A DNA stretch of 64,000 nt from a virus, in the IMG/VR virus record IMGVR_UViG_3300043409_001462, positions 64,001 to 128,000 of that record. One strand, given 5' to 3'. Both the position numbers and the translations under genes were made by a program. Every line of letters starts with the position of its first letter. The stretch's first letter is position 1. The notes beneath the pieces are model-generated. The model had not been told where the DNA came from. It was given only the letters and a program-made list of their open reading frames with translations, and searched no databases. Below, piece after piece: positions 5,648-57,278 of the stretch.

Positions 5648-7695
5648 TGGCATTATTAGATTTATTATTGATGGGTGGTGGTGGTGTTTCCGTTACTTAC
5701 CCAGCAACAGTAACCAATGGTACTCCTTTTACATGGAGAATTGTAAATGGTAAACCTAATGAAGGATGGTGGGGGACCACATCTGGAGCTTTCGTAACAA
5801 CTTTCGGTTCTCAAGCAGCTCCATTTGCATATCTTGATAGTTCTGGAAATGCTACTTACACCAATGGTGATTTTTCTCCGAATTTTGGAACTATAACATT
5901 AACAATTAATTTTCAATCTGGTTCAGTTATTACTAAAACTGTCACAATTTCGAAAGGGGCGACACCAACTGTTACTATGCCAACAGAACAAGACGTTGGA
6001 ACCCCTTTCGATTGGACAATATCTAATGGTAAACCAGATATGTCTTATATTGTAAGATCAACTAACACTTATGCTGGTACTGAAGGAAATTGGGGAACTC
6101 AATTAATTCCATCTACAGGTATTTCAAATATACAAATACTTGACGCTTATGGAAACGCTACAAATAGAATATATAGAACTCCTTCAACGGTTATAAATCC
6201 GTTTGGTTATGGGTGGGATTATGGTACACCAAATGTAGGTAGAACTATAACATTAACATTTACTTTTTCTAACGGCACTTCAGTTACAAAAAATATATAT
6301 GTTTCAGAACCAAGAGTAGCTTTCACATCAAATATATTTTCAGTTGCAGCCGCTACTTATTCTAAAGATTATTATTGGATAATTGCTGGATGTGGTTCTG
6401 GTAAATTATTAGTGTCTACAGATAGAGGTACAAAATTTTATCAAAAAATATTTGCTTATAGAGTTAATGGTGTTTTAACACAAAGAACCGATGTAAATAT
6501 TTTAAATATTAGATATTTTCCAAAATGGGGAACGAACGCAACTGGAATTTGGGTCGCTGCTACTTCTATCGGGTGTTTTTATGGATATACTACATTATGG
6601 TCCAATTCTAATGGGACAGGATTTAATGCTGATACATTTTCATGGATGGAATGGATTCCTTTAACTGATTTGAATAATATATTGACTAATTATTGTGCAG
6701 ATGCAATTTACTGGGATCAGGCTGGTGCAATTTATGCAATAAATGGTGGAATTTGTGCGAGATATGGTTTTTTTGGAGCTGAAATAGGCGTATCAAGAGC
6801 AGCTGCTTTTTCTAAAAGCACAATAACTTATTATAATAGCACAACTTCTACTGAAACAGTAACAAATAATTATATACCTGCAGGTAATTTTACAACAATT
6901 TACGCTCCACCTAATCCATCATCTGTTGCTAGAAGTGCACTTTTGATTGGTGCTAGTGATGGAGAAGTTTATCATTTAGTAGCGGATCCTTATTTAGGGT
7001 CTAATTATCCTTCGTATACAAATAAACCAACTACTAGTGGTTTAGAATTTAGAGGTTATGGAAAAGTTAATGCTTATGACGCACATGCGCAAGTAACTGG
7101 CCCTCGATTTATTAAGAAAATAACATCTACTTATACTGGTACTGGTTCAAGCAGCTTAGACTATAGTTATATGGCTTTGACGCAATACAATATAGCAATA
7201 CCATTTATTTTTTCGTCTACTATTACAAATCATTCTATTCCTAGAACTTGGCAGGATGATCCTTCTACTTTTTATAAATATTATTGGCAAGCTGGATTAA
7301 CTAATGTGCCAACTGTTGGTGTAGCAGGAACAGGTGCTTTCATCGTACAAAAAACATCAGATAGCACTCAAATAGAAACAGCAAGTGGATTTAAATTCAC
7401 ACCACTTATAGGTGGGGATGGATCTGGAAGAATATATAAATTTGGTACAATACCATTTTATAGTGCTACAAATGGCATTTCATCCTCCAAAGATGCAGCA
7501 CTAGCAAATTATGGAATTTTGGCTTGTTGTTCTGTTCCAATAACTGTTTCTGGATATACTGATGCATTTGCTAATATATATGTTGGGTCTATGGGTACAA
7601 TTCAAAAAGAAATTGTATATAATAATAACAGTCAACTGAGTAATGCAATAATAAATAATGGTGGAACAATAAAAAACGTTTACACTCAAGTATAA
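5647..7695 (+). CDS. Putative virion/receptor-binding protein
   Basis: Overlaps stop of upstream fibre gene; two internal repeats (TPFxWxIxNGKP...TITLT); beta-rich composition. Confidence 0.55.
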   Translation: MALLDLLLMGGGGVSVTYPATVTNGTPFTWRIVNGKPNEGWWGTTSGAFVTTFGSQAAPFAYLDSSGNATYTNGDFSPNFGTITLTINFQSGSVITKTVTISKGATPTVTMPTEQDVGTPFDWTISNGKPDMSYIVRSTNTYAGTEGNWGTQLIPSTGISNIQILDAYGNATNRIYRTPSTVINPFGYGWDYGTPNVGRTITLTFTFSNGTSVTKNIYVSEPRVAFTSNIFSVAAATYSKDYYWIIAGCGSGKLLVSTDRGTKFYQKIFAYRVNGVLTQRTDVNILNIRYFPKWGTNATGIWVAATSIGCFYGYTTLWSNSNGTGFNADTFSWMEWIPLTDLNNILTNYCADAIYWDQAGAIYAINGGICARYGFFGAEIGVSRAAAFSKSTITYYNSTTSTETVTNNYIPAGNFTTIYAPPNPSSVARSALLIGASDGEVYHLVADPYLGSNYPSYTNKPTTSGLEFRGYGKVNAYDAHAQVTGPRFIKKITSTYTGTGSSSLDYSYMALTQYNIAIPFIFSSTITNHSIPRTWQDDPSTFYKYYWQAGLTNVPTVGVAGTGAFIVQKTSDSTQIETASGFKFTPLIGGDGSGRIYKFGTIPFYSATNGISSSKDAALANYGILACCSVPITVSGYTDAFANIYVGSMGTIQKEIVYNNNSQLSNAIINNGGTIKNVYTQV

Positions 7696-44431: not shown

Positions 44432-44443
44432 CGCTGTTTGACA
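44432..44443 (+). promoter_or_regulatory. boxA-like antitermination element
   Basis: CGCTGTTTGACA about 20 nt after the -10; resembles rrn boxA GCTCTTTAACA. Confidence 0.45.
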
Positions 44444-44469
44444 TTGTTGGAAGCAGAAGCAATCGAAAG

Positions 44470-44578
44470 GTTGTTTCTTCATGGATGCACTTACGGTTCG
44501 ATTCCGTAGTGGTCTGATCAACCGCCTAGTTCTAGACTAGAAAAGCTGTGGACAGGAGTGCATCTTTGAAGAAACAAC
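44470..44578 (+). ncRNA. Structured ncRNA A: long stem bearing a T-arm and an anticodon-like arm
   Basis: GTTGTTTCTTCA/TGAAGAAACAAC and GATGCACT/AGTGCATC stems enclosing TACGG-TTCGATT-CCGTA. Confidence 0.6.
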
Positions 44579-44774
44579 TTATTAGGTGTGGTGTTATGGA
44601 AAATTGCAGTGTTCCTGCACAGCGCACAGTCCCTGGAGCCCTCTGTCCTGCAGGCACGGCATAAACTGAGTTGCAATCAAAAATTGGGGTCGCGCCCAGC
44701 AATAAGATTGCAGAGTAAAGCGAACGGTATGGCGGTCTATCCATATCCATAACATAACATCACTCCTAATAAGT
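44577..44774 (+). ncRNA. Structured ncRNA B (unknown family)
   Basis: ACTTATTAGG/CCTAATAAGT and GTGGTGTTATG/CATAACATCAC closing stems; internal TGCAATC/GATTGCA stem. Confidence 0.55.
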
Positions 44775-44854: not shown

Positions 44855-44857
44855 TAA

Positions 44858-44930
44858 TTGCTTGTAGGGAGAGCCTAGTCGCTCCTGCATGTATTGGAGA
44901 GGCTTAAGCCTGGCGGTATACAGCAAGCAA
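44858..44930 (+). ncRNA. Small structured ncRNA C
   Basis: TTGCTTG/CAAGCAA closing stem with two internal hairpins, between tRNAs. Confidence 0.4.
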
Positions 44931-44939
44931 CTTATATAC

Positions 44940-45304: not shown

Positions 45305-45382
45305 CCTCCGTTGGTGTAGCGGTCTAACATACCCGCCTTTCAAGCGCGGAGATCATCGGTTCAAATCCGATACGGAGGACCA
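45305..45382 (+). tRNA. tRNA-Glu(UUC)
   Basis: Loop CTTTCAA; one anticodon-stem mismatch; CCA. Confidence 0.85.
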
Positions 45383-45705: not shown

Positions 45706-45796
45706 TAGGTGATGAGTTGTAGGTAAACCTGAATGCGCTAGGGAACCTTCCTAACTGTTGAGTGATGATGTCGTCACGCACTAGTTACTCAACAGT
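45706..45796 (+). ncRNA. Structured spacer/ncRNA D
   Basis: 12-bp ACTGTTGAGTGA/TTACTCAACAGT stem plus two small hairpins. Confidence 0.35.
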
Positions 45797-45804
45797 CCAG
45801 TTTC

Positions 45805-46056: not shown

Positions 46057-46662
46057 ATGCAAAATGAAGTGATAAGTCTTTTCCCAACAGCTGTTATGAA
46101 GTCTACATTGGACAGAAAACTTTCAAGAAAAGAAGTTAATTTTGTAAAGAAGAATTTTAAAAATATTAGAAGCAATTTGCAAAACAGTACTAGTTGTGAT
46201 AATTATATTTTAGAAAACCAAGAATTTGTTTCTTTGAAAGAGTTTATTGAAACACAGTTAGATGTATATTACAGAAAAGTATTAAATGTTGATACAAGCT
46301 CAAAGATCTACATTACACAATCATGGTTGAATTATTCTAAGCCAGGTGAATCACATCATCCACATACACATACTAATAGTTTTTTGAGTGGCGTATTCTA
46401 CATTAGCACAAATGAAAATGATAGAATTTTCTTTAGAAAACAAAAAGAATTTATACATATACCACCAACTGTTTGTAATGTTTGGAATTCTGATTTGTGG
46501 GCATTGTCAGCTGTAGAAGGATATCTTTATATTTTTCCTTCAAACCTTGAGCATTATGTGGAAAAAATAACAGGTAGTAAAACAAGAATTAGTTTGAGTT
46601 TCAATTCATTCATATCTGGAAAAATTGGAGCTCCTGATTTCTTATCAGAATTAAAGATATAA
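46057..46662 (+). CDS. 2OG-Fe(II) oxygenase (TIGR02466-like)
   Basis: LFPT, SWLN, HPHTH.NS.LSGVFY, IFPS.L.H.V, RISLSFN motifs. Confidence 0.8.
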   Translation: MQNEVISLFPTAVMKSTLDRKLSRKEVNFVKKNFKNIRSNLQNSTSCDNYILENQEFVSLKEFIETQLDVYYRKVLNVDTSSKIYITQSWLNYSKPGESHHPHTHTNSFLSGVFYISTNENDRIFFRKQKEFIHIPPTVCNVWNSDLWALSAVEGYLYIFPSNLEHYVEKITGSKTRISLSFNSFISGKIGAPDFLSELKI

Positions 46663-46741: not shown

Positions 46742-46816
46742 GGTGCCTGAGTAGGACGGTAATGCGCAGGTCTGCAAAACCTTGAGAACCCAGTTCAACT
46801 CTGGGAGGCACCTCCA
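46742..46816 (+). tRNA. tRNA-Cys(GCA)
   Basis: Loop CTGCAAA; U73; CCA. Confidence 0.88.
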
Positions 46817-46994: not shown

Positions 46995-47591
46995 ATGATT
47001 AGCAAACATTTATTGAATGAATTGAATTATATTGTAATTGATAGTGGTGTAAAGATGGAAGGTAATTTGTTTTACTACCATCAGACGACACCATCTGATA
47101 ATCTTTACGAACCTTTCGAAAAGAAACGTCAGAACCTACAGCTATTGGCTAAGAAGTTTGATAACATTATGGAGATCGGTTTCAATGCTGGCCATAGTGC
47201 TGCTTTGATGCTCGAAGCCAATCCTAATCTGTTCTTGGTTAGCATCGATATTGGTGAACATAGCTATGTTTCTTCATGCGGAAAGGCTATTCAATCTGCT
47301 TTCCCTGGAAGGCACCAGCTTATCATCAAGGATTCGAAGCTTATCACTCAGAAAGAAATTAGCTTCGCTCAAGCTGTCATCGTTGATGGTGGTCATGAAT
47401 TTGATGATTGCTCTGCAGACTTGGAGTTGTGTAAAACGTACTGCGCGCCAGGAACAGTTATCGTTATCGACGATATTGATTTGAATGGAGTGCAGCTTGC
47501 GTATAGGCATCACTCTAGAAGTTTGTCAGTATGGAAAGATATTGAAACAATATATAACCAAGCTTTCTTCACATTAAACTCGCCCGAGTAG
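46995..47591 (+). CDS. Class I SAM-dependent methyltransferase (Methyltransf_24-like)
   Basis: MEIGFNAGHS, VDGGH, VIDD motifs. Confidence 0.8.
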   Translation: MISKHLLNELNYIVIDSGVKMEGNLFYYHQTTPSDNLYEPFEKKRQNLQLLAKKFDNIMEIGFNAGHSAALMLEANPNLFLVSIDIGEHSYVSSCGKAIQSAFPGRHQLIIKDSKLITQKEISFAQAVIVDGGHEFDDCSADLELCKTYCAPGTVIVIDDIDLNGVQLAYRHHSRSLSVWKDIETIYNQAFFTLNSPE

Positions 47592-47662: not shown

Positions 47663-47774
47663 AGGTTGTGTTCAGCATACAATGGATGAACCAGTCGGTC
47701 GGGTGTTCGAGTCACCCCAGGAGCTCCTTGCTTCTGTAGCTCAGTGGTAGAGCAACTGCCAAAAAGTACAACCT
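47663..47774 (+). ncRNA. Array unit 1: YrlA-like RNA with circularly permuted tRNA module
   Basis: AGGTTGTG/TACAACCT closing stem; T-arm 47701-47717, loop-closed 7-bp acceptor stem 47718-47736, D-arm 47739-47753. Confidence 0.8.
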
Positions 47775-47788
47775 GTTGAAAATAGTGC

Positions 47789-47817
47789 TTGACTTATCCG
47801 TAGATAAAGCGTATTAT
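47789..47817 (+). promoter_or_regulatory. Promoter for array units 2-6 and DUF2828 gene
   Basis: TTGACT-17-TATTAT. Confidence 0.7.
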
Positions 47818-47833
47818 ATGTGTATTGAGTTTG

Positions 47834-47968
47834 AGATTGACCGTTCAGCAAACAGCTTTTGATCAAGCTAGTAGCCCCTGGGCTACGTATAGACTGGCTT
47901 TATACCTGGTCTCCAGTGGTTGTTTCTTCGGGCGTCCACTATAAAAAAATGAAATAAGAAGTCAATCT
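47834..47968 (+). ncRNA. Array unit 2: Y-RNA-like, multi-hairpin cargo
   Basis: AGATTGAC/GTCAATCT stem; GTTCAGCA motif; CTGTTGAG linker. Confidence 0.7.
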
Positions 47969-47978
47969 GTTGAGTTTT

Positions 47979-48067
47979 AGGAAGCATTCGGCAAACAATT
48001 ATTGATTGGTTCAACTCCAATACCAGCGGTTCACGCTAGTACGCCTCGTGTGGGGCAACTGCTTCCT
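47979..48067 (+). ncRNA. Array unit 3: degenerate YrlA-like RNA
   Basis: AGGAAGCA/TGCTTCCT stem; TTCGGCA; T-arm ATTGG-TTCAACT-CCAAT, acceptor-like and D-like hairpins. Confidence 0.7.
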
Positions 48068-48077
48068 GTTGAGTTCT

Positions 48078-48135
48078 AGGATTGTTACAGCATAAATGCA
48101 CTTGATTTGTAATCAAACCCGCAAAGGGCAATCCT
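48078..48135 (+). ncRNA. Array unit 4: Y-RNA-like with Thr(UGU) anticodon-arm mimic
   Basis: AGGATTG/CAATCCT stem; TTACAGCA; TTGA-TTTGTAA-TCAA. Confidence 0.7.
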
Positions 48136-48145
48136 GTTGAGTTTT

Positions 48146-48197
48146 AGGGTCAGTTCCGCATCTAAAATGATTGCATATATCAAACCAAGATGACCCT
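48146..48197 (+). ncRNA. Array unit 5: Y-RNA-like with 7-nt-loop hairpin
   Basis: AGGGTCA/TGACCCT stem; GTTCCGCA; TGAT-TGCATAT-ATCA. Confidence 0.7.
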
Positions 48198-48206
48198 GTT
48201 GAGTTT

Positions 48207-48259
48207 AGATTCAGTTCCGCAACCAATCAAATCGACTTGAAATCGACCAAAGTGAATCT
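48207..48259 (+). ncRNA. Array unit 6: Y-RNA-like with Ser(UGA) anticodon-arm mimic
   Basis: AGATTCA/TGAATCT stem; GTTCCGCA; TCGA-CTTGAAA-TCGA. Confidence 0.7.
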
Positions 48260-48280
48260 GTCGTAAAATGGAGAAGTGAA

Positions 48281-49711
48281 ATGAATACCTTTGTAAATGC
48301 CGTTGTTAATCAGGAAGCTCGTACCGAAAATGGTATGAAGGCTCGCCAGTCTACTGCTAATGCATTGACTGATCTGTTCTTCAAGATCGGTGCTATGCGT
48401 GGTCAGAATGTAATTCCTGCTTGGACTGCTGCTCGTGCTCATGATACTTTGCTTGCATCTCGTATCGCTCTTTGGGCACGTGATGTTCGTGGTGGTGCTG
48501 GTGAACGTAAAATCTTCCGTGACATTTTAGTTGATCTTGCTTCAGCTGATCCTCATCGTGGTGTGGCTCTTGGTCGTAAGATTCCAGAGCTTGGTCGTTG
48601 GGATGACTTCCTTGTGTTCGTTGGTACCCCTCTTGAGGAGTATGCGTTCGAAACTATCCGCGAAGCTCTCGAAGCTGGTAATGGTCTCTGTGCAAAGTGG
48701 ATGCCTCGTCAAGGTGAAACAGCTGTAAAGCTTCGTAAGTACCTTGGTTGGACTCCTAAGTTCTACCGAAAGCGTCTGGTTGAATTGACCAAGGTTGTCG
48801 AAACTCAGATGTGCGCTAAGGACTGGGATAACATCAACTTCAACCATGTTCCTTCGGTTGCTTCTTCTCGTTACAAGAAGGCATTCGCTCGTCATACTGA
48901 CAAGTACAAGGAATGGACTGCGGCTCTTGTTTCTACTGATCCAGAGGTGGCTAAGTCTGTTAAGGTCAATGCTGGTGCGGTTTATCCTTACGATGTGTTG
49001 AAGGGTGTGATTAATCATTATGGGCGTTATGATCAATCTAACTTGAATCATATCCTTGCTCAGTGGGAAGCTTTGCCTAACTTCGTTGGTAATGCTAACA
49101 TTCTTCCGCTTGTTGACGTTTCTGGTTCAATGACTTCGAAGGCTGGTGGTTATCAGTCAAAGTCAGAAGTAACCTGCCTTGATGTTGCAGTTTCTCTTGG
49201 TCTGTATCTCGCAGACAAAAACAAGGGTAAGTTCAAGGATACTTTCTTGACCTTCTCTAGCGATCCTCAGCTGCTTCATCTTCGCGGTAACATCCTCGAT
49301 AAGGTAAAGCAGATGGTATCTTCAAAGTGGGAAATGAACACCAATTTGCATCGTGCGTTGGATAAGATCCTTCGCACCGCGATTGAAGGTAACGTTCCTC
49401 AGTCAGAAATGCCAGGTGCATTGTTGATCCTTTCTGATATGCAGTTTGATTCTTGCACTCGTCACGATGACTCTGCTATGGAAATGATTAAGCGTAAGTA
49501 TGTTGATGCTGGTTACAATGTACCTAACATTGTGTTCTGGAATCTCAATGCTCACGACAATGTTCCTGTCAAGTATGACACTCGTGGTGCTGCTCTTGTT
49601 TCTGGTTTCTCACCTTCTATCGTTAAGGCTGTTCTGCAGGCTGAGATGGATAACTTTACGCCAGAAGCTATCATGATGCAAACCATTATGAACCCACGAT
49701 ATGACTACTAA
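48281..49711 (+). CDS. DUF2828-family protein (Ro60/TROVE-like helical domain + C-terminal vWA)
   Basis: TENG, RDVRGG.GER, AKWMPR, VPSVA..YKKAF..H; MIDAS DVSGSM; SDMQFD, FWNL, SGFS. Confidence 0.8.
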   Translation: MNTFVNAVVNQEARTENGMKARQSTANALTDLFFKIGAMRGQNVIPAWTAARAHDTLLASRIALWARDVRGGAGERKIFRDILVDLASADPHRGVALGRKIPELGRWDDFLVFVGTPLEEYAFETIREALEAGNGLCAKWMPRQGETAVKLRKYLGWTPKFYRKRLVELTKVVETQMCAKDWDNINFNHVPSVASSRYKKAFARHTDKYKEWTAALVSTDPEVAKSVKVNAGAVYPYDVLKGVINHYGRYDQSNLNHILAQWEALPNFVGNANILPLVDVSGSMTSKAGGYQSKSEVTCLDVAVSLGLYLADKNKGKFKDTFLTFSSDPQLLHLRGNILDKVKQMVSSKWEMNTNLHRALDKILRTAIEGNVPQSEMPGALLILSDMQFDSCTRHDDSAMEMIKRKYVDAGYNVPNIVFWNLNAHDNVPVKYDTRGAALVSGFSPSIVKAVLQAEMDNFTPEAIMMQTIMNPRYDY

Positions 49712-49743: not shown

Positions 49744-49770
49744 GGATGCCCATTGTTGTGATGGGCATCC
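49744..49770 (+). terminator. Strong hairpin after DUF2828 gene (terminator or processing signal)
   Basis: GGATGCCCAT..ATGGGCATCC inverted repeat; weak T tail. Confidence 0.45.
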
Positions 49771-50248: not shown

Positions 50249-50359
50249 ATGTACAAAATATACACGCTAGTGATTGATAACATTACCAAATTAGTTTGGT
50301 TAGCATTAATGACCTATTGGTTATCCGATGGTGTCAAGATAACGTCGCTATTCAAATGA
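50249..50359 (+). CDS. Small hydrophobic peptide (36 aa)
   Basis: GGAGA RBS after late promoter; ATGA overlap with next gene. Confidence 0.4.
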   Translation: MYKIYTLVIDNITKLVWLALMTYWLSDGVKITSLFK

Positions 50360-51003
50360 AGAAATTAGCTCTCTTCAATCATCACCCTGAATGTTCTAAT
50401 CAGTGTTGTATGGGTATGATGAGAGCTTTAGAACCACATTATAAAGTCAAGTGGTTTGATGTTCGTTCCAATCTAGACGAGGTGCTTGATAATGTGGATG
50501 GGTTACTTTTTCCTGGTGGCATTGGCGATAGTGATTCCTATTTCGATTTCTTTACACGTTCTAAAGCTAACAAAATCGCATCGTTTATTGCTAGAGGCGG
50601 TCGGTATATCGGCATTTGTATGGGTGCTTATTGGGCTGGGTCTAGATATTTTGACATTCTTGACAATGTAGATGCGGTTCAGTATATTAAAAGACCAACA
50701 GCTGAGATACGCCGAAGCTATGGCACGGTTGCTGATATCGAATGGCTTGGTCAAAAAGAAAAGATGTTCTTCTATGATGGCTGTACCTTTGTTGGACCAG
50801 GTCGCTATGATACTATTGCCAAGTATGCCAACGATGAACCAATGGCGATCATTCAAGGCAACATAGGTATTATTGGTTGCCACCCTGAGAGCGAAGAGTT
50901 TTGGTTCGAAGATCCTTATCAATATATCAACAAACACTGGCATAAAGGTAAGCATCATCAGTTACTACTAGAATTCGTAAATAAGTTATGGAGAGTTGGC
51001 TGA
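50356..51003 (+). CDS. BPL-N / class I glutamine amidotransferase-like protein
   Basis: FPGG, YIGICMGAY (catalytic Cys elbow), HPE. Confidence 0.75.
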   Translation: MKKLALFNHHPECSNQCCMGMMRALEPHYKVKWFDVRSNLDEVLDNVDGLLFPGGIGDSDSYFDFFTRSKANKIASFIARGGRYIGICMGAYWAGSRYFDILDNVDAVQYIKRPTAEIRRSYGTVADIEWLGQKEKMFFYDGCTFVGPGRYDTIAKYANDEPMAIIQGNIGIIGCHPESEEFWFEDPYQYINKHWHKGKHHQLLLEFVNKLWRVG

Positions 51004-51079
51004 GTGGCCTAAAGCACTCGTTTGCTAAATGAGCGAAGGTGAAAATCTTCCGTGAGTTCGAATCTCACACTCTCCGCCA
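50990..51079 (+). tRNA. tRNA-Ser(GCU)
   Basis: Long variable arm; loop TTGCTAA; CCA. Confidence 0.92.
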
Positions 51080-51093
51080 TATAAATAAAAAGT

Positions 51094-51167
51094 ATCAGTG
51101 AAGTGTTACGGTAGCACATCGGTCTCCAAAACTGAGGGCGAGGGTTCGACTCCTTCCACTGGTGCCA
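51094..51167 (+). tRNA. tRNA-Trp(CCA)
   Basis: Loop CTCCAAA; G73; CCA. Confidence 0.9.
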
Positions 51168-51221
51168 TTTCATACAATGCTTTTGATGAAGATTTTGTCA
51201 TATTCATCAAAGGAGTAATAT

Positions 51222-52952
51222 ATGAAAAAAATATTAGCGTTTATTGCTGCACTTTTCTGCGTAACTTCAGTATATGCACAAACTTTACCATCAGGTTCAA
51301 TTGGTACAGTAACAAACAATACACCTAACACCTGGCAAACATTCACATACACATTCACACCATCAACAACTGGTGCTAACTTTCTCGGCTTTGCATTTCG
51401 TCAGGATCCAGCTTTCTGGACTTTCGATAATGTAAAGCTTACAGCTGCTGGTTCAACAACTAATCTTTTGACTAATGGTGCGTTTGACAATGGTGGTTCA
51501 TTTAGTGTAACAACCAGCAATGGTCCATCATCCATTCAAGCCCCAACTAACTGGGGTGTTTGGTATCAGAATGGAACATATCCAGCCGCTGCTGGTCAGT
51601 GGCAAAGCTCAGGTGTTTGGTACGATGGTGCTGTTGGTACATTCGATGGTATCTATCAGGGCATAGTCCTACAAGCAGGAACAACTTATACCATAGCCTT
51701 TGATGTCAGTGGAAACAATACTGCTAACACTAGCTCTATTCAGCTTGGTGCATATGGTGGCGCTTGTGCTGATGTATCGGTTTCACCCGATCAATGTACT
51801 ATTCCATCGTCTGTTGGCTTCACGACATTAGCAACTCCAGCTCAAGGCGCTTCTGCTGGTGGACCACCAACTCCTCCACCTGTTACTCTTGTCAGCACTA
51901 CAAACGCTCCATCAACTTCTGTTGCAACAACGGTAAATGGTACAGCTGTAACAGTTAACAATGTAGCTACTGGTGGTACAAATAATGGTAGATGGATTGC
52001 TGTAACAAGAACAACAACACCTGTTACTACAAGACCATTTACTGTCACAACTGTGACAACTCCACACGCTACTGAAACTTATAGCGATGGAACAACTGTT
52101 ACAACAAATGGTACTGCTGTAACAACTACTCAAACTGGTGCTACTGTTACTGTAGGTCAATCAACAGCTCAAACTGCTTCTGCTTCTGCTATTGCTCTCA
52201 AAGATGCAATGGCTATTAGTAGATTCAATCCATTTATTGTAGATGCTCTTGCAACCAAAGATGGTGCATGGGCAACTCCTTCTATGGGATATGCTAAGAC
52301 TGGTGGTTCATTTAGAACAAGTGGTCTTGGACTTGGCGCTCAGACAACTGTAGAAGAGAATACTTTTGGTATCGCTGGTACATTTGGTAAAACAAACAGT
52401 AGTGGTTATCTAAACTCTCAATCTCAAGCTGATACATATGGTGCAACTGCATATGTTTTAAGCAGACAGAGTGATATTTGGGTAAAAGGATCTGTTGGGT
52501 TCAATGTGTCAGAATATAACACAACAACATCACTTCCAGTGTTTGCTCTTATCAATCAGAGCAATGTAAGAGCTAAGAATTATTATGCTGATGTGACATT
52601 CTACTCTGCGCAGGAGTATTTTGGCTTCAGACCGTTGGTTGGCGTTGTTGTAACTAACTCAACAATATCATCAAAGGCTCAATCAGGTTCGCCTCTGCTT
52701 TCAACATTACCGACTGATGATAGAGTTATCGAAGCTCGACCATATGCTGGTATCAGATTTGATATTGACCAGACATTTGGAATTGAAACAAGAGTAACAC
52801 AATCAAAAGACTTCAAGACAGTTGGACAGGCTCGTTTGACTGCTAATCATGAAGTGTTCAAGGATGTGTTCTTCAACGTTCAAGCTGGGTTTGAAAAAGG
52901 TTCTGGTTACACAGCAGCTGTAGGTATGATTGGTTTGAAAATCAACTTCTAA
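51222..52952 (+). CDS. Secreted/outer-membrane protein: signal peptide, beta-sandwich passenger, Thr-rich linker, autotransporter-like barrel
   Basis: MKKILAFIAALFCVTSVYA signal; alternating beta pattern ending GLKINF. Confidence 0.65.
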   Translation: MKKILAFIAALFCVTSVYAQTLPSGSIGTVTNNTPNTWQTFTYTFTPSTTGANFLGFAFRQDPAFWTFDNVKLTAAGSTTNLLTNGAFDNGGSFSVTTSNGPSSIQAPTNWGVWYQNGTYPAAAGQWQSSGVWYDGAVGTFDGIYQGIVLQAGTTYTIAFDVSGNNTANTSSIQLGAYGGACADVSVSPDQCTIPSSVGFTTLATPAQGASAGGPPTPPPVTLVSTTNAPSTSVATTVNGTAVTVNNVATGGTNNGRWIAVTRTTTPVTTRPFTVTTVTTPHATETYSDGTTVTTNGTAVTTTQTGATVTVGQSTAQTASASAIALKDAMAISRFNPFIVDALATKDGAWATPSMGYAKTGGSFRTSGLGLGAQTTVEENTFGIAGTFGKTNSSGYLNSQSQADTYGATAYVLSRQSDIWVKGSVGFNVSEYNTTTSLPVFALINQSNVRAKNYYADVTFYSAQEYFGFRPLVGVVVTNSTISSKAQSGSPLLSTLPTDDRVIEARPYAGIRFDIDQTFGIETRVTQSKDFKTVGQARLTANHEVFKDVFFNVQAGFEKGSGYTAAVGMIGLKINF

Positions 52953-52956
52953 TTCG

Positions 52957-52980
52957 GGGGAGCTTCGGCTCCCTTTTTTT
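52957..52980 (+). terminator. Intrinsic terminator
   Basis: GGGAGC-TTCG-GCTCCC plus T7. Confidence 0.9.
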
Positions 52981-53022
52981 ATTATCTAAATATCAAATAT
53001 GTGAATCGATTCGGAGTTTGAT

Positions 53023-54192
53023 ATGATCTATGGTTATCATCCTACATACTATAAACATTTTTTGAGAATTGCTTCTAAATATCCTAACGATAGCAGAGCG
53101 AAACAAATCTTAAACTTTAACTTCCACAGCAGAAAGGAAAATCCTCTCTGGTGGATTAGTCGTTTTATGCACAATCAAGTTCCAGTTGACAGAACTGATA
53201 CATTTAATATTCTTAAGGTTGACACTTGGTCGATACCAGATGTAGATACATCATTCAAAAAAACATTCGATCAAATATGCTACGGAACAGCTACAGAATA
53301 CTGGAACAATAATGACGACGTAAGCGTTCTTTGGTCTGGTGGATTAGATAGCACATGTGTCGCTATTGCATTCATAGAAACAAAACCAGCTGGTAAAAAA
53401 CTAACATTGGTAGGCACGCAAGAAAGCGTTGACGAGTATCCCTCTTTCTATGAACAGCATAAAGCTTTAATGAAGATTGATACTACTGAAGAATTTTGGG
53501 GAAGGTTTAAATATCATCAAAATGAAACTCTGTATGTTTCTGGTGATATTGGGGACCAAATATTCGGCGGTGTTATAGATGAATATGCTGATCATAAAGA
53601 CGAACCTTGGGAGAGCTTTATCGAGTGGAAAGATGTGTTCGAACAAAGTGCTTTCAATGCAGATAATTTAATCCGAGATTGGTATAAGGATGAAAAAAGT
53701 TTATTCATCAAAAGATTTACTGAGTTCAATAAAAAAGCACCATTCCCAATCGTTACTATTTTAGATTTTGTCTGGTGGTTAACATTTACAACTAGATTTA
53801 ATGGTGCTGCAAACAACATAACAAATCTTGTCAATGCAGTTTATAAATTAGAAAAAGCTGCTATAGGAACAGTTAACTGTTTCTTTCACAACTACGAATT
53901 TGAACAATGGTCGATGCTTAATCATCATTTGAAATTTCCTGGCGGACCAGAAACATACAAACAACCTATCAAAGATTTTATTGCGAAGTACAATGGTGAT
54001 ATGGATTTTCTTCTCAATAAAAGAAAAGAAAAATCTACACCTCGCCTTTTAGGAAGCGATGATTGGTTTAAACAATGGCGCTTGAACGATTACTCAAATT
54101 ATTATTTGATTATGTCAGATGGAACCATATATAATACTAAGAATGACATTCCTTTCGAACTGATGGTAAAGTCTTTAACATTTATAAAGTGA
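53023..54192 (+). CDS. PP-loop adenylating enzyme, paralogue 2
   Basis: WSGGLDS, SGDIGDQIFG, DFVWW motifs. Confidence 0.7.
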   Translation: MIYGYHPTYYKHFLRIASKYPNDSRAKQILNFNFHSRKENPLWWISRFMHNQVPVDRTDTFNILKVDTWSIPDVDTSFKKTFDQICYGTATEYWNNNDDVSVLWSGGLDSTCVAIAFIETKPAGKKLTLVGTQESVDEYPSFYEQHKALMKIDTTEEFWGRFKYHQNETLYVSGDIGDQIFGGVIDEYADHKDEPWESFIEWKDVFEQSAFNADNLIRDWYKDEKSLFIKRFTEFNKKAPFPIVTILDFVWWLTFTTRFNGAANNITNLVNAVYKLEKAAIGTVNCFFHNYEFEQWSMLNHHLKFPGGPETYKQPIKDFIAKYNGDMDFLLNKRKEKSTPRLLGSDDWFKQWRLNDYSNYYLIMSDGTIYNTKNDIPFELMVKSLTFIK

Positions 54193-54198
54193 GATGAT

Positions 54199-54951
54199 AT
54201 GGAAAGAATTATTGGAAGTGTTTTAGATGGTCACTATTATAATGATGATGGGTCTCGGAAGAAGATAGGAATATACTGTCAGCAAATAGATAGGTGGATT
54301 CTTATTGATGAATATGACATGTGGATTACATTTAAAACTGCACAAGCTTTATCATCAAAATTAGCAACTACTGTTTATATTCTTTCTGGTGATTTGCAGG
54401 GTATGAACAACGAGAACTGTATTGAATATAGCATCCTAAACAAAACGATATTCAAACGCAAAAACGTTGCTGATCTGATTCAAAATCAAACTCCTACTAT
54501 GAAAAAGGTAGTCGACGATAATATTGTTAAGGTTGGATTGCCTGAAGATTTTTTGTCAATTGTTGGGCGCAAGAAGTTAGAAAAAATGAAAAAATATGTA
54601 AATTTTGTTAACAAGTGTATCTACGGTGTAGAAATATGTAATTCTAAAAATTGGATTGATAATAAAACTGTAGCCATAGTATATCATCCGAAAGAATGGA
54701 GCGATGTGATAACACCATATGAACACAAATCAGAATCAGATAAAAGTGTGTTCAGCGAAATCAATGGCGTTCTGTATTTTTCCAACTCAGTTAAAGAAGC
54801 TAAAGCTGAGATAAAGAATTTGTTTCAATTTTATCTAGATGAATGTTTGGTATCGACCAATCTTGTAAACGTTTTTTATAATGTCATCAAAGAAAAAAAT
54901 CCATTCTCAGAGTATGTCTATAAAACTTCTAACTTTTACAAAACTACTTGA
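54199..54951 (+). CDS. Hypothetical protein
   Basis: 250-aa ORF between PP-loop paralogues. Confidence 0.6.
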   Translation: MERIIGSVLDGHYYNDDGSRKKIGIYCQQIDRWILIDEYDMWITFKTAQALSSKLATTVYILSGDLQGMNNENCIEYSILNKTIFKRKNVADLIQNQTPTMKKVVDDNIVKVGLPEDFLSIVGRKKLEKMKKYVNFVNKCIYGVEICNSKNWIDNKTVAIVYHPKEWSDVITPYEHKSESDKSVFSEINGVLYFSNSVKEAKAEIKNLFQFYLDECLVSTNLVNVFYNVIKEKNPFSEYVYKTSNFYKTT

Positions 54952-54965
54952 ACGAGTAAATCATC

Positions 54966-56273
54966 ATGATAACTTCAGACGAAACACTTTATTTTTTTAA
55001 CATAAGAGACCAGCAAAAGTTTTGGAAAGAAATTTATCCATCGGCTCCACCAGCAAGTAAATTTTATATTGACATCACAAAAAGAATAAACCCACATAGA
55101 CTTTGTAATAGAAACGAAGGCGAGTGGAGTTTACCTTGGAAGCAACACGCTCCTGATAAATTTAAAATGCTTCCATACAATCCAAATTTTAATAAAACGT
55201 ATGAAGAAGTAACTGATGAAAGAGCTATGGATATCAAACGAGGTATCCATGCTGGTAAAAAATATGCAGTGATGTATTCTGGTGGTATGGATTCTACCAG
55301 TGTTGTTGTCGCACTATTAAAGAACTTGACCAAGGAAGAATTAAAATGCGTTACGATATGCGCATCGATTCATAGTCTTGTAGAATATCCCCTTTTCTGG
55401 CGCAAATATATTCAAGATAAATTTGAAGTTTTAGATTCCAACAAATATTTGTACGACGATTATATTGGTATGGGTTATACTCCTATCACAGCTGATGAGG
55501 GTGATTGTATCTTTGGTACTTCTATCGGATTGCAACTTTATCATAATTACGATTATCTTGTTGGGTTGCAGGATCCTGCGGTGCAGGGTAATTTAATGAA
55601 ATTGAAATATCGAATATCAGATGGTGATGTTCATTATAGTCTTTTTAAAGATGTTATCGCTAGATATTTTGCATATGACGATACGCCTTCTGGATTAGAA
55701 TTCGGCAGGTTACTTTATGCGAAGTATCATCGTAATATTATTACGTCTTCCGTGCCAATTTATTCTCTACACGATTTCTTTTGGTGGCTTATCTTCAACG
55801 TAAAATATTTGAATTGTTCAATCCGTGGCGCTATTTTCTTCAACGCTACAATGCCTTTCGATAAGTGCGTTGACTCTATTGAAAACTGGTTTAATGGACC
55901 TGGATTTCAGTACTGGAGTATGAATAACAATAACAATGGATTGAAAATTAAAAAGACTCTAGCTTCATATAAACATATTCAAAGGAAATATATCTACGAT
56001 TTCACCAAAGATGATTGGTATTTTTGGTACAAAACCAAGCTAGAATCTATGGGTAATTTGTCTGTCAAGGGTAAAAATGATATGTCTAAATCATTTACCA
56101 ATAGCGTTATTGGAATTAATGATAAGAATGAGTATCTTTGTATCCCTGACCCTGATGATTTAGATTCAGTTGTCAATAGCAAATATCAAGGTGTGTATCA
56201 TTATGGTCCAGATGTGAGAAATTTTTTCGAAGAATCATTAATGAAATTCGAAATAGACTGGATGGATGACTAA
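54966..56273 (+). CDS. PP-loop adenylating enzyme, paralogue 3
   Basis: YSGGMDS, TADEGDCIFG, DFFWW motifs. Confidence 0.7.
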   Translation: MITSDETLYFFNIRDQQKFWKEIYPSAPPASKFYIDITKRINPHRLCNRNEGEWSLPWKQHAPDKFKMLPYNPNFNKTYEEVTDERAMDIKRGIHAGKKYAVMYSGGMDSTSVVVALLKNLTKEELKCVTICASIHSLVEYPLFWRKYIQDKFEVLDSNKYLYDDYIGMGYTPITADEGDCIFGTSIGLQLYHNYDYLVGLQDPAVQGNLMKLKYRISDGDVHYSLFKDVIARYFAYDDTPSGLEFGRLLYAKYHRNIITSSVPIYSLHDFFWWLIFNVKYLNCSIRGAIFFNATMPFDKCVDSIENWFNGPGFQYWSMNNNNNGLKIKKTLASYKHIQRKYIYDFTKDDWYFWYKTKLESMGNLSVKGKNDMSKSFTNSVIGINDKNEYLCIPDPDDLDSVVNSKYQGVYHYGPDVRNFFEESLMKFEIDWMDD

Positions 56274-56333
56274 ATAGAGTTGCAGGGGTCATGACCTGTA
56301 TCATTTAACGTTAAATCAACATGGAGTTTTTTA

Positions 56334-57278
56334 ATGACAACTAATATTCGCTGGGTTATCGCCCATGAACCAGTAGATCTTTTCCTTAAGGTTGCTGATT
56401 CTTTTTCTAAGGAAGTAAACGAACAGACTAACGGTAAGTTCAATATCGAAGTTCTTTCGCTTACTGATTATTCTAAGAAGTATAATGGTGGCAAGAAGGT
56501 ATCTAAGAACGATCTTATGAACCTTATTGATACTGGCGCTATCGAAATGAGCCATATCTACACTACTTGGCTTGCAGACTACAACAAGGACCTTCATGCC
56601 CTTGATCTTCCATTCCTATTCAAGGATCATGATCACGCTGACCGTGTTCTTGAAGGCGATCTTGGCAAGTCATTGCTTGCTGACGTTTCTAAGACTTCCA
56701 ACATCAAGGCAATGAGCTTCACTTACTCTGGCGGTTATCGTATCGTTCCTGCGAACTTCGCAGCTGATACTGTATCTGCATGGGAAGGTAAGGTAGTTCG
56801 TACTAGCCGTTCTCCAGTTGCTGTTGATACATTCAAGCTTCTTGGTGCAACTCCTCGTGCAGACATTGAACTTGAAGAAATGAACTCTGCTGCTGACGCT
56901 GGCGTTATCGCTGCTGGCGAATCAACATATGTTCGTGTGTTCCCACTCGAGCAGAATAAGAGCTTCGAAGTTGTTAACGATACAGCTCATAGCTTGTTCC
57001 TAACTTCAATCATCGTGAACCAGGATTTCTTCAAGCAGTTCGATGCTGAAACACAGGAAATCTTTGCTAACGCTGCATTCAACGCTGCTCGTAAGGAGCG
57101 TCGTGAGTCTGTTGCTGATATTCCAAACATCCTTGCTCAGTGCGAAGCTACTGGCGTTAAGGTTGTTAAGATGTCTGAAACTGAAGCAGGCAAGTTCAAG
57201 GCAATCACATCTAAGGTTTATGAGATGTACGCTGACTACTTCACTCCAGGTCTTGTGCGCAAGCTCCAGGTTGCTTAA
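56334..57278 (+). CDS. TRAP solute-binding protein DctP-like, without signal peptide
   Basis: V.E.TNGK..IEV, G.IEM, LDLPFLFKD.DHA, GYR, conserved VRT Arg, LGATP motifs. Confidence 0.8.
   Translation: MTTNIRWVIAHEPVDLFLKVADSFSKEVNEQTNGKFNIEVLSLTDYSKKYNGGKKVSKNDLMNLIDTGAIEMSHIYTTWLADYNKDLHALDLPFLFKDHDHADRVLEGDLGKSLLADVSKTSNIKAMSFTYSGGYRIVPANFAADTVSAWEGKVVRTSRSPVAVDTFKLLGATPRADIELEEMNSAADAGVIAAGESTYVRVFPLEQNKSFEVVNDTAHSLFLTSIIVNQDFFKQFDAETQEIFANAAFNAARKERRESVADIPNILAQCEATGVKVVKMSETEAGKFKAITSKVYEMYADYFTPGLVRKLQVA

What the first reader, a model, noticed from the sequence alone, without database searches (positions are those of the whole stretch)
47663..49711. Tandem array of six Y-RNA-like ncRNAs with tRNA-mimic cargo directly upstream of a Ro60/TROVE-like DUF2828 gene
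Seen: six units, each closed by a 7-8 bp stem whose sequence differs but whose pairing is kept: AGGTTGTG/TACAACCT, AGATTGAC/GTCAATCT, AGGAAGCA/TGCTTCCT, AGGATTG/CAATCCT, AGGGTCA/TGACCCT, AGATTCA/TGAATCT. Every unit starts AG and ends CT. The 5' strand is followed by a conserved motif (TTCAGCA, TTCAGCA, TTCGGCA, TTACAGCA, TTCCGCA, TTCCGCA). Units 2-6 are joined by CTGTTGAGTT..AG linkers. The interiors are variable. A sigma70 promoter (47789-47817) precedes units 2-6, and the DUF2828 start codon is about 21 nt after unit 6. Known: Ro60/Rsr (TROVE + vWA) binds Y RNAs via a stem formed by their 5' and 3' ends, and bacterial Y RNA genes lie beside rsr. Inference: a divergent Ro60-like protein with its own modular RNA repertoire (constant protein-binding handle, variable payload), processed from one precursor at the linker. 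It may act in tRNA quality control or against host tRNA-targeting defence.
Basis: partly seen in the sequence, partly recalled or inferred. Interest (0 to 1): 0.95.

Follow-up and report, generated by a model that had tools for sequence, protein, structure and literature searches.

The report
Phage Ro60-like protein with RNA-mimic array
A freshwater phage carries six small RNA genes in a row, all with the same short 'handle' but each carrying a different tRNA look-alike piece, just in front of a gene for a protein predicted to fold like the RNA-binding ring Ro60; the same pairing recurs in very different phages and I found no paper describing this RNA family.

Summary
Observation confirmed: six stem-closed units (47663-48259) lie 21 nt before a DUF2828/DUF7788 gene in a 173-kb T4-like phage. 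The units share a handle: a 7-bp covarying end-stem, one base, WWCNGCA, and a CUGU end. In 57 related loci, 185 units lie upstream against 6 downstream, 2 antisense and about 3 in shuffles. Searching from the RNA side, 24 of 31 handles had the gene nearby on the same strand. The protein's model matches Ro60 (Z 21.3, 411 residues) although the TROVE family is not hit by sequence. Cargo: units 1 and 3 are YrlA-order permuted tRNAs, units 4 and 6 are anticodon arms, unit 2 is a probable pseudoknot, unit 5 is unclear. The units lack the canonical Y-RNA motif (0 of 180), so they are not YrlA members. The Dictyostelium Class I RNA model ranks handle units first in 7 of 11 phage genomes or contigs, below threshold and not in this genome. 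Most likely this is a divergent Ro/Y-type particle with exchangeable RNA mimics. Binding, processing and function are inferred, not shown. This scan reported the system before on other DNA (189 notes, at least 135 genomes). The Ro60 likeness of the protein family is already published.

The parts
47663..47774 (+). Unit 1: handle plus circularly permuted tRNA mimic (T arm 47701-47717, loop-closed acceptor hairpin 47718-47736, D arm 47739-47753); starts 4 nt after tRNA-Leu
   Evidence: YrlA 39.1 bits, E 4e-7, threshold 69; 13 homologues, 97% of cells paired, 15 of 21 pairs with double changes
47789..47817 (+). sigma70-type promoter-like site (TTGACT-17-TATTAT) between units 1 and 2
   Evidence: both boxes kept in L002 and L003 while the spacer drifts; 12 of 19 long spacers against 0.9 shuffled; activity not shown
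47834..47968 (+). Unit 2: handle, three hairpins, and a 5-bp hairpin plus A-tract (47915-47961), a probable H-type pseudoknot of preQ1-I/SAM-II-like layout
   Evidence: preQ1 18.1 bits against 39; SAM-II 15.1 against 44; 22 related cargos, first helix covaries; register of the second helix not settled
47979..48067 (+). Unit 3: handle plus shorter permuted tRNA mimic (T arm 48005-48021, closed hairpin, D-like arm)
   Evidence: same T-then-D order in L002, L006, L008, L064
48078..48135 (+). Unit 4: handle plus Thr(UGU)-type anticodon arm (48098-48116) and a small hairpin
   Evidence: 18 of 19 bases identical to this phage's tRNA-Thr(AGT) arm; relatives vary the anticodon (UGU, UUU, UCU, CUU, GUU) and keep YU-NNU-AA
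48146..48197 (+). Unit 5: handle plus a 4-bp hairpin with a GCA-containing loop; not a canonical anticodon loop
48207..48259 (+). Unit 6: handle plus Ser(UGA)-type anticodon arm (48232-48246, loop CUUGAAA)
   Evidence: same loop on different stems in 11 units; same loop as the phage's tRNA-Ser(UGA)
47969..47978 (+). Example of the 9-10 nt AU-rich linker (also 48068-48077, 48136-48145, 48198-48206); candidate RNase E-type cut site
   Evidence: RNWUU in 77 of 95 linkers against 45+/-5 shuffled (motif from PMC5222698); cleavage not shown
48281..49711 (+). 476-aa DUF2828 + DUF7788 (phrog_850) protein: helical repeat domain plus vWA domain with intact MIDAS (D279, S281, S283, T354, D386); Ro60-like fold
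   Evidence: (pLDDT 92.6, pTM 0.90)
49744..49770 (+). 12-bp hairpin after the gene, terminator-like or a processing signal before the next tRNAs
   Evidence: pattern match only

Best explanation
The locus encodes a divergent Ro/Y-type ribonucleoprotein kit. Shown: six units share a covarying end-stem plus unpaired WWCNGCA and carry exchangeable cargo, they travel with the DUF2828 gene, and the protein model has the Ro60 fold. Inferred: unit 1 is read with the upstream tRNA operon, and units 2-6 plus the gene from the internal promoter. A host single-strand endonuclease (RNase E type) cuts the AU-rich linkers. Each 50-135-nt RNA is bound and stabilised by the protein through the handle. The cargo (tRNA elbow, anticodon arm, pseudoknot; rRNA-like parts in relatives) is presented to host proteins that recognise such RNA. 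I give about 0.75 to handle binding. Given binding, the most likely job is to occupy or redirect host tRNA-handling enzymes during infection, as decoy for anticodon nucleases or tether to nucleases and repair enzymes, while the ring itself may bind single-stranded 3' ends. The decoy step alone is about 0.35.
For: Coupling in both directions: from protein to RNA, 56 of 57 viral loci, 40 of 80 GTDB contigs (many probably viral), and cultured phages of Listeria, Campylobacter, Staphylococcus, Mycobacterium, E. coli, Cronobacter, Synechococcus and Vibrio. From RNA to protein, 24 of 31 stretches hold the gene, all on the same strand, 21 within 1 kb. T4 and T5 lack the gene, and their tRNA regions show no canonical unit. 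Fold: the 13 best Foldseek hits are all Ro60; Z 21.3, 411 aligned, rmsd 4.0 to 1YVP. Fourteen conserved K/R lie in the helical domain. The stem sequence is free while the adjacent unpaired bases are fixed, as expected of a protein site; Ro60 reads mainly the 5' strand next to the end-stem (PMC4201824). Cargo: anticodon-like 7-nt loops in 34 of 75 short units against 1.7 shuffled; T-loops in 45 of 180 against 0.6. No unit ends in CCA, so none can be charged as it stands. Unit sets differ between phages whose proteins are 76-93% identical, as in a fast-changing conflict module.
Against: No binding, unit-length transcript or phenotype is available for this phage. Sequence likeness to Ro60 is marginal (profile E 0.04) and the Y-RNA motif is absent. 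Ochrobactrum phage OC has the gene but no unit that my patterns found, and half of the GTDB loci show none. Bas63 gp130 protects T7 against Ppl when moved as a gene alone (PMC11482910), and Ppl is a DNA exonuclease (PMC12904381), so the one known activity does not appear to need the RNAs. Cargo such as unit 2 or unit 5 has no known nuclease target. Counts of units are not independent events, because the loci are related.
Confidence: 0.6

Rival explanations
1. RYPER-like tether or gate: the RNAs bridge the ring to host PNPase or another exoribonuclease, or close its cavity, so controlling RNA decay and repair; the cargo is a docking surface, not a decoy. This overlaps with the best explanation and differs in the last step.
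For: Known role of Yrn1 and YrlA (PMC4201824). Phage phiLo Ro60 with Yrl1/2 binds and slows host PNPase (PMC12135203). Units 1 and 3 have the YrlA topology. RtcB lies within 3 kb in Listeria phage LP-048 and 5 of 80 GTDB loci.
Against: No RtcB in this genome or in any of 80 close viral loci. A single tether would not need up to 8 different cargos with varying anticodons.
Confidence: 0.25
2. Cis-regulatory leader: the protein binds the handles in its own mRNA and controls its translation; the units are operator repeats, not free RNAs.
For: The last unit ends within 30 nt of the start codon in 49 of 56 loci; the promoter and units 2-6 lead straight into the gene; one RNA contig from a relative spans units 4-6 and the gene start (weak).
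Against: Units also lie downstream of the gene or scattered among tRNA genes kilobases away. Unit 1 lies before the promoter. The cargo is conserved with covariation, which an operator would not need. Autoregulation may still be a side function of the last unit.
Confidence: 0.08
3. The RNAs act without the protein, as free decoys stabilised by their own end-stem; the linkage to DUF2828 reflects only shared expression in the tRNA region.
For: Both lie in tRNA clusters; gp130 works without its RNAs; some gene carriers show no unit.
Against: T4 and T5 have tRNA clusters and stable RNAs but neither gene nor canonical handle. The unpaired motif is conserved across phages of unrelated hosts, which argues for a partner encoded alongside.
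Confidence: 0.05
4. DNA-level cassette array (integron attC-like or CRISPR-like repeats) or decayed tRNA genes.
For: The linker GTTGAGT fits the attC core GTTRRRY in 45 of 185 units; units are gained and lost as blocks.
Against: The inverse core RYYYAAC occurs once in 185. The repeat sequence differs in each unit while RNA pairing, including G-U, is kept. Strand specificity is strict. Permuted T-before-D order with covarying closed acceptor stems is not decay.
Confidence: 0.02

Closest known systems
Bacterial and phage Ro60 (Rsr, TROVE PF05731 + vWA) with YrlA/YrlB Y RNAs (Rfam RF02553; Chen et al. 2014, PMC4201824)
   Same: Helical domain plus MIDAS vWA fold; RNAs on the same strand next to the gene; stem joining 5' and 3' ends with a conserved motif on the 5' side; permuted T-acceptor-D tRNA module in units 1 and 3.
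   Different: Protein 12-16% identical, different Pfam families; motif WWCNGCA instead of GNCGAAN0-1G (0 of 180); up to 8 tandem units with anticodon arms, pseudoknots and other cargo instead of one or two RNAs; YrlA score far below threshold.
Thermus phage phiLo Ro60 with Yrl1 and Yrl2 (PMC12135203; PDB 9KOP, 9L5Y)
   Same: Phage Ro60-fold protein with tandem small RNAs directly upstream; fold match Z 15.5 over 399 residues.
   Different: phiLo RNAs were defined by a CGAA motif, absent from the first 25 nt of all six units here; the protein is a TROVE member, 16% identical.
Bas63 (Felixounavirus) gp130 (PMC11482910)
   Same: Same family, 37% identical over the full length; authors noted Ro60 likeness and guessed that some neighbouring tRNA genes are Y RNAs; four handle units lie among its tRNA genes.
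   Different: The paper does not identify the RNAs; the units are in the gaps between annotated tRNAs; the reported activity (anti-Ppl) transfers with the gene alone.
Dictyostelium Class I RNAs (Rfam RF01414; Kjellin et al. 2021, PMC7919456)
   Same: Short end-joining stem with free sequence, adjacent unpaired CAGCAA motif, CUGU end, variable interior, many copies. L003 unit 2 has the 11-nt motif exactly. The Class I model ranks a handle unit first in 7 of 11 phage genomes or contigs.
   Different: Scores of 20-25 bits, threshold 41.5; no unit hit in this genome; usually one base fewer between stem and motif; all five invariant positions in only 40 of 180 units; Class I RNAs are dispersed eukaryotic genes with an RRM partner (Rnp1A). 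A DUF2828 gene in Dictyostelium could not be checked.
T4 species 1/2 RNAs (rnaC, rnaD) and T5 stable RNAs
   Same: Unexplained stable, partly tRNA-like RNAs in phage tRNA clusters.
   Different: No handle in them and no DUF2828 gene in T4 or T5.

Membership tests
Ro60/Rsr (TROVE) proteins | Match to TROVE (PF05731) or Ro60 vWA (PF25045) profile | tested here: not met
   No TROVE hit for this protein or 10 relatives; PF25045 at best 18.1 bits against cut-off 27.7 in one relative; PDB profile search E 0.04-0.07 to Ro60 chains
Ro60/Rsr (TROVE) proteins | Helical-repeat domain followed by a vWA domain in the Ro60 arrangement | tested here: met
   Predicted model only: Foldseek top 13 are all Ro60, TM up to 0.61; Z 21.3, 411 residues, rmsd 4.0. 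The cavity itself was not measured.
Ro60/Rsr (TROVE) proteins | MIDAS motif DxSxS...T...D | tested here: met
   D279, S281, S283, T354, D386 invariant in 144 sequences
Ro60/Rsr (TROVE) proteins | Binds a Y RNA stem; binds single-stranded 3' ends in the cavity | not testable with these tools
   Needs binding assays
YrlA / bacterial Y RNA | Encoded within 4 kb of the Ro60 gene on the same strand | tested here: met
   With respect to the Ro60-like gene:
YrlA / bacterial Y RNA | Stem joining 5' and 3' ends | tested here: met
YrlA / bacterial Y RNA | GNCGAAN0-1G motif near the 5' end | tested here: not met
   0 of 6 here, 0 of 180 overall
YrlA / bacterial Y RNA | Permuted tRNA domain (T arm, closed acceptor, D arm) | tested here: met
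   Units 1 and 3 only; 15 units with T before D; covariation
YrlA / bacterial Y RNA | Rfam RF02553 gathering score 69 | tested here: not met
   39.1 bits for unit 1; 37-46 in relatives
Dictyostelium Class I RNA | Short covarying end-stem and CUGU end | tested here: met
   All six units end CTGT; features from PMC7919456
Dictyostelium Class I RNA | 11-nt motif with T3, C6, C9, A10, A11 | tested here: inconclusive
   6-9 of 11 in this window, 11 of 11 in L003; all five positions in 40 of 180 units
Dictyostelium Class I RNA | Rfam RF01414 gathering score 41.5 | tested here: not met
   Best 20-25 bits on units of relatives; no unit hit in this genome
Dictyostelium Class I RNA | Shared protein partner (DUF2828 gene in dictyostelids) | not testable with these tools
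   No amoeba proteome searchable; truncated supplement gave nothing
preQ1-I or SAM-II riboswitch (unit 2 cargo) | Rfam gathering score | tested here: not met
   18.1 against 39 and 15.1 against 44
preQ1-I or SAM-II riboswitch (unit 2 cargo) | H-type pseudoknot with A-rich third loop | tested here: inconclusive
   First helix and A-tract conserved in 22 units; second helix UUUC/GAAR has one double change at its core
Integron attC cassette array | Paired cores RYYYAAC and GTTRRRY | tested here: not met
   45 of 185 and 1 of 185

The most novel reading that the evidence does not exclude
DUF2828 proteins and WWCNGCA-handle RNAs form a second, ancient Ro/Y lineage that works as a programmable display platform. 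One ring protein carries exchangeable RNA mimics (tRNA elbows, modifiable anticodon arms, rRNA parts, pseudoknots) that neutralise host RNA-targeting defences, and the orphan Class I RNAs of social amoebae are the eukaryotic branch of the same family.
Probability: 0.15. Interest if true: 0.93.

Novelty: new variant of a known kind. Interest (0 to 1): 0.74.

Why it matters
DUF2828 is widespread: 711 cultured phage records match, at least 2,257 clusters at 50% identity match with E below 1e-30, and it also occurs in bacterial genome assemblies and giant viruses. A defined RNA partner would give this family a testable biochemistry. It would explain many 'pseudo-tRNAs' and gaps in phage tRNA clusters and add an RNA-based route to phage counter-defence. 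It is testable at once in E. coli phage Bas63, where the gene already has a phenotype and four units are now located. If the likeness to Dictyostelium Class I RNAs is homology, it names a candidate partner for an RNA class thought unique to social amoebae.

Tried and rejected
Single-sequence PDB search: no Ro60 hit. TROVE membership by profile: not met. attC or CRISPR reading: rejected. Homology to T4 rnaC/rnaD and T5 stable RNAs: no handle; one isolated candidate antisense to T5.079 lacks the AG start and the G after the stem and is treated as chance. Riboswitch reading of unit 2: below thresholds, and the base before the 3' strand of the first helix is U or A, not the C that, from memory, pairs with preQ1. 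RtcB partnership: absent here and in 80 close loci. Folding the whole precursor gives no signal (z 0.09) and single units only z -1.3 to -2.8, so structure rests on covariation, not on energy. Expression: one freshwater metatranscriptome has contigs of a close relative over 47862-48017 and 48076-48301; contigs show no ends, strand or level and may be DNA, so this is not counted as support. Literature searches for DUF2828, Ro60-like, Ro-like RNA, and decoy/anticodon terms found no description of the RNA family. Subscription papers are not covered, and the Sim 2020 review was not held. No complex prediction was run, since the tool does not take RNA. A Dictyostelium DUF2828 gene could not be checked. 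The first pseudoknot scripts were too strict; one search is the one used.
Full report
Setting. The window is bases 64001-128000 of a 173,384-bp virus record, 38% GC, rated complete. Its large ORFs follow a T4-like plan (read by eye). It has 29 tRNA calls and a permuted tmRNA; from my own knowledge two-piece tmRNAs of this kind suggest an alphaproteobacterial host, which was not tested. The array lies inside the tRNA region, 4 nt after tRNA-Leu and before a 476-aa gene.

Observation. All six units, arms, motifs, linkers, the promoter-like site and the 21-nt gap are as stated. The feature is far beyond chance. In 57 non-redundant IMG/VR loci encoding relatives (61-93% identity) a fixed pattern found 185 units in the kilobase upstream, 6 downstream, 2 on the opposite strand and about 3 in shuffles. 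Because that pattern demands a stem, I also anchored on the 5' half only: 151 of 168 anchors were closed by the exact complement of their own 7-mer, against 11+/-3 when 7-mers were swapped, and 0 of 13 anchors inside the gene closed. The handle is a 7-bp stem, one base, WWCNGCA, variable cargo, the 3' arm, then GU.

Coupling to the gene. The handle recurs next to homologues in phages of Synechococcus, E. coli (Felix O1 type), Listeria, Campylobacter, Cronobacter, Staphylococcus and Mycobacterium, among the tRNA genes of KVP40, in Bas63, and in 40 of 80 GTDB contigs (84 units against 3 antisense; many of these contigs may be viral). Starting from the RNA, 24 of 31 handle matches had the gene in the fetched stretch, always on the same strand, 21 within 1 kb, upstream or downstream. 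One of the two patterns used this window's unit 4 stem, so some matches are loci already seen. T4 and T5 lack the gene and show no canonical unit in their tRNA regions. Exceptions exist: no unit was found in Ochrobactrum phage OC.

Protein. It is DUF2828 + DUF7788, phrog_850 'RNA-binding protein'. The AlphaFold model (pLDDT 92.6, pTM 0.90) returns only Ro60 structures among Foldseek hits under E 0.001 and aligns to Xenopus Ro60 with Z 21.3 over 411 residues, rmsd 4.0, 12% identity. The MIDAS residues are invariant and the helical domain has 14 conserved basic residues. By sequence it is not a TROVE member. The likeness is already noted in public: annotations 'Ro-like RNA binding protein' and 'putative Ro sixty-related protein' and the Bas63 gp130 preprint (PMC11482910). 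gp130 is 37% identical.

Cargo. Unit 1 matches YrlA at 39.1 bits (E 4e-7; threshold 69). Its T arm, loop-closed acceptor and D arm covary in 13 homologues (97% paired, 15 of 21 pairs with double changes, slid controls 36-47%; the structure was drawn from one of these sequences, which favours it). Unit 3 has the same order. Among 75 short units, 34 hold a 7-nt YU-NNN-R loop on a stem of at least 4 pairs, against 1.7 in dinucleotide shuffles; T-loops occur in 45 of 180 units against 0.6; none ends in CCA. Of 40 CU-NNN-A loops, 39 end the anticodon in U or A and 28 begin with U; from general knowledge these are the contexts of t6A/i6A and wobble-U modification. The loops fall into few classes, so this is a lead only. 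Unit 6 carries the Ser(UGA) loop. Unit 2 belongs to a group of 22 cargos with a covarying hairpin, a UUUC-containing loop and an A-tract, probably a pseudoknot; it scores below the preQ1 and SAM-II thresholds. Unit 5 is unresolved. Close relatives carry different sets and orders of units.

Expression and processing, inferred. Promoter-like sites fill 12 of 19 long inter-unit spacers against 0.9 by chance. Short linkers are 75% AU and hold RNWUU in 77 of 95 cases against 45 shuffled, the RNase E core of PMC5222698. Cleavage and unit-length RNAs are not shown; the one RNA data set is contigs only.

Mechanism. Free stem sequence with fixed neighbouring unpaired bases, strict linkage to one protein family and the Ro60 fold make handle binding likely (about 0.75). 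What the particle does is less sure. Fast turnover of cargo and varying anticodons favour decoys or baits for host tRNA-handling enzymes. The YrlA topology and the phiLo precedent (PMC12135203) favour a tether or gate. The Bas63 result shows the protein acting against a DNA-end exonuclease when moved as a gene alone, which fits a ring that hides single-stranded 3' ends and means the RNAs may regulate rather than enable it.

Comparison. It works like Ro60 with Y RNAs but fails membership on the Y-RNA motif (0 of 180), the YrlA score and the TROVE profile. One relative has the motif exactly. Run blind over whole phage genomes or contigs, the Class I model ranked a handle unit first in 7 of 11 (20-25 bits, threshold 41.5), second in one, and missed in three, including this genome (coordinates converted by me). 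By eye, DdR-66 and DdR-67 carry a stretch that resembles the 23S rRNA L1 stalk as I remember it, as do some phage units; this was not tested. Homology or convergence remains open.

Verdict. A real, conserved RNA-protein module that I did not find described in the papers searchable here: a new variant of the Ro/Y kind. This scan has reported it on other DNA many times; those notes are not independent evidence, and one later check gave a bold reading only 6 in 100. Interest 0.74.

Noticed in passing
window 44467-44580: Strongly folding RNA-like element ahead of the tRNA cluster: long end-stem and a multi-way junction with a T-loop-like hairpin; z -5.6 for 44440-44585; no Rfam match.
   Followed up: partly
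window 45305-45382: ARAGORN calls tRNA-SeC (TCA), but the loop reads CTTTCAA, so it is most likely tRNA-Glu(UUC) with an irregular anticodon stem.
   Followed up: partly
window 46742-46816: tRNA missed by ARAGORN, found by Rfam; loop CTGCAAA suggests Cys(GCA).
   Followed up: partly
window 44855-44939 and 45706-45804: Long gaps between tRNA genes with hairpins (one 13-bp stem at about 45754-45796); folding not better than shuffles overall.
   Followed up: partly
window 46057-46662 and 46995-47591: A 2OG-Fe(II) oxygenase and a methyltransferase (Methyltransf_24) sit inside the tRNA cluster; possible RNA-modifying enzymes, untested.
   Followed up: no
window 50296-57278: Auxiliary genes after the tRNAs: BPL_N/glutamine amidotransferase-like protein, a weak asparagine-synthase-like hit, and a DctP-type solute-binding protein.
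   Followed up: no
genome G000 5645-6030 (outside the window): Permuted two-piece tmRNA with tag ANDNNASRLALAA.
   Followed up: no
L036:2558-2778, L029:1978-2198, L039:2699-2850, L045:306-462, L057:2705-2913: Long units (150-260 nt) whose cargo has CTGGAAAG, GGAG...TTGAAG or repeated GTAGAA modules that by eye resemble 23S rRNA protein-binding elements.
   Followed up: no
L203 (KVP40 172879-177432) and L090:4947-5288 (Cronobacter S13): Handle units sit between tRNA genes or overlap features annotated as tRNA-Ser or tRNA-OTHER, so some phage 'pseudo-tRNAs' are probably such units.
   Followed up: partly
L001 and L019, about 2400-2790 and 460-880: The same small protein gene interrupts the array in several relatives, and L048, L016 and L043 mix true tRNA genes between units.
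   Followed up: no
BFVD hits: DUF2828/DUF7788 proteins also occur in giant viruses of protists (Pithovirus, Marseillevirus, Mimivirus, CroV); handle RNAs there were not searched.
   Followed up: no
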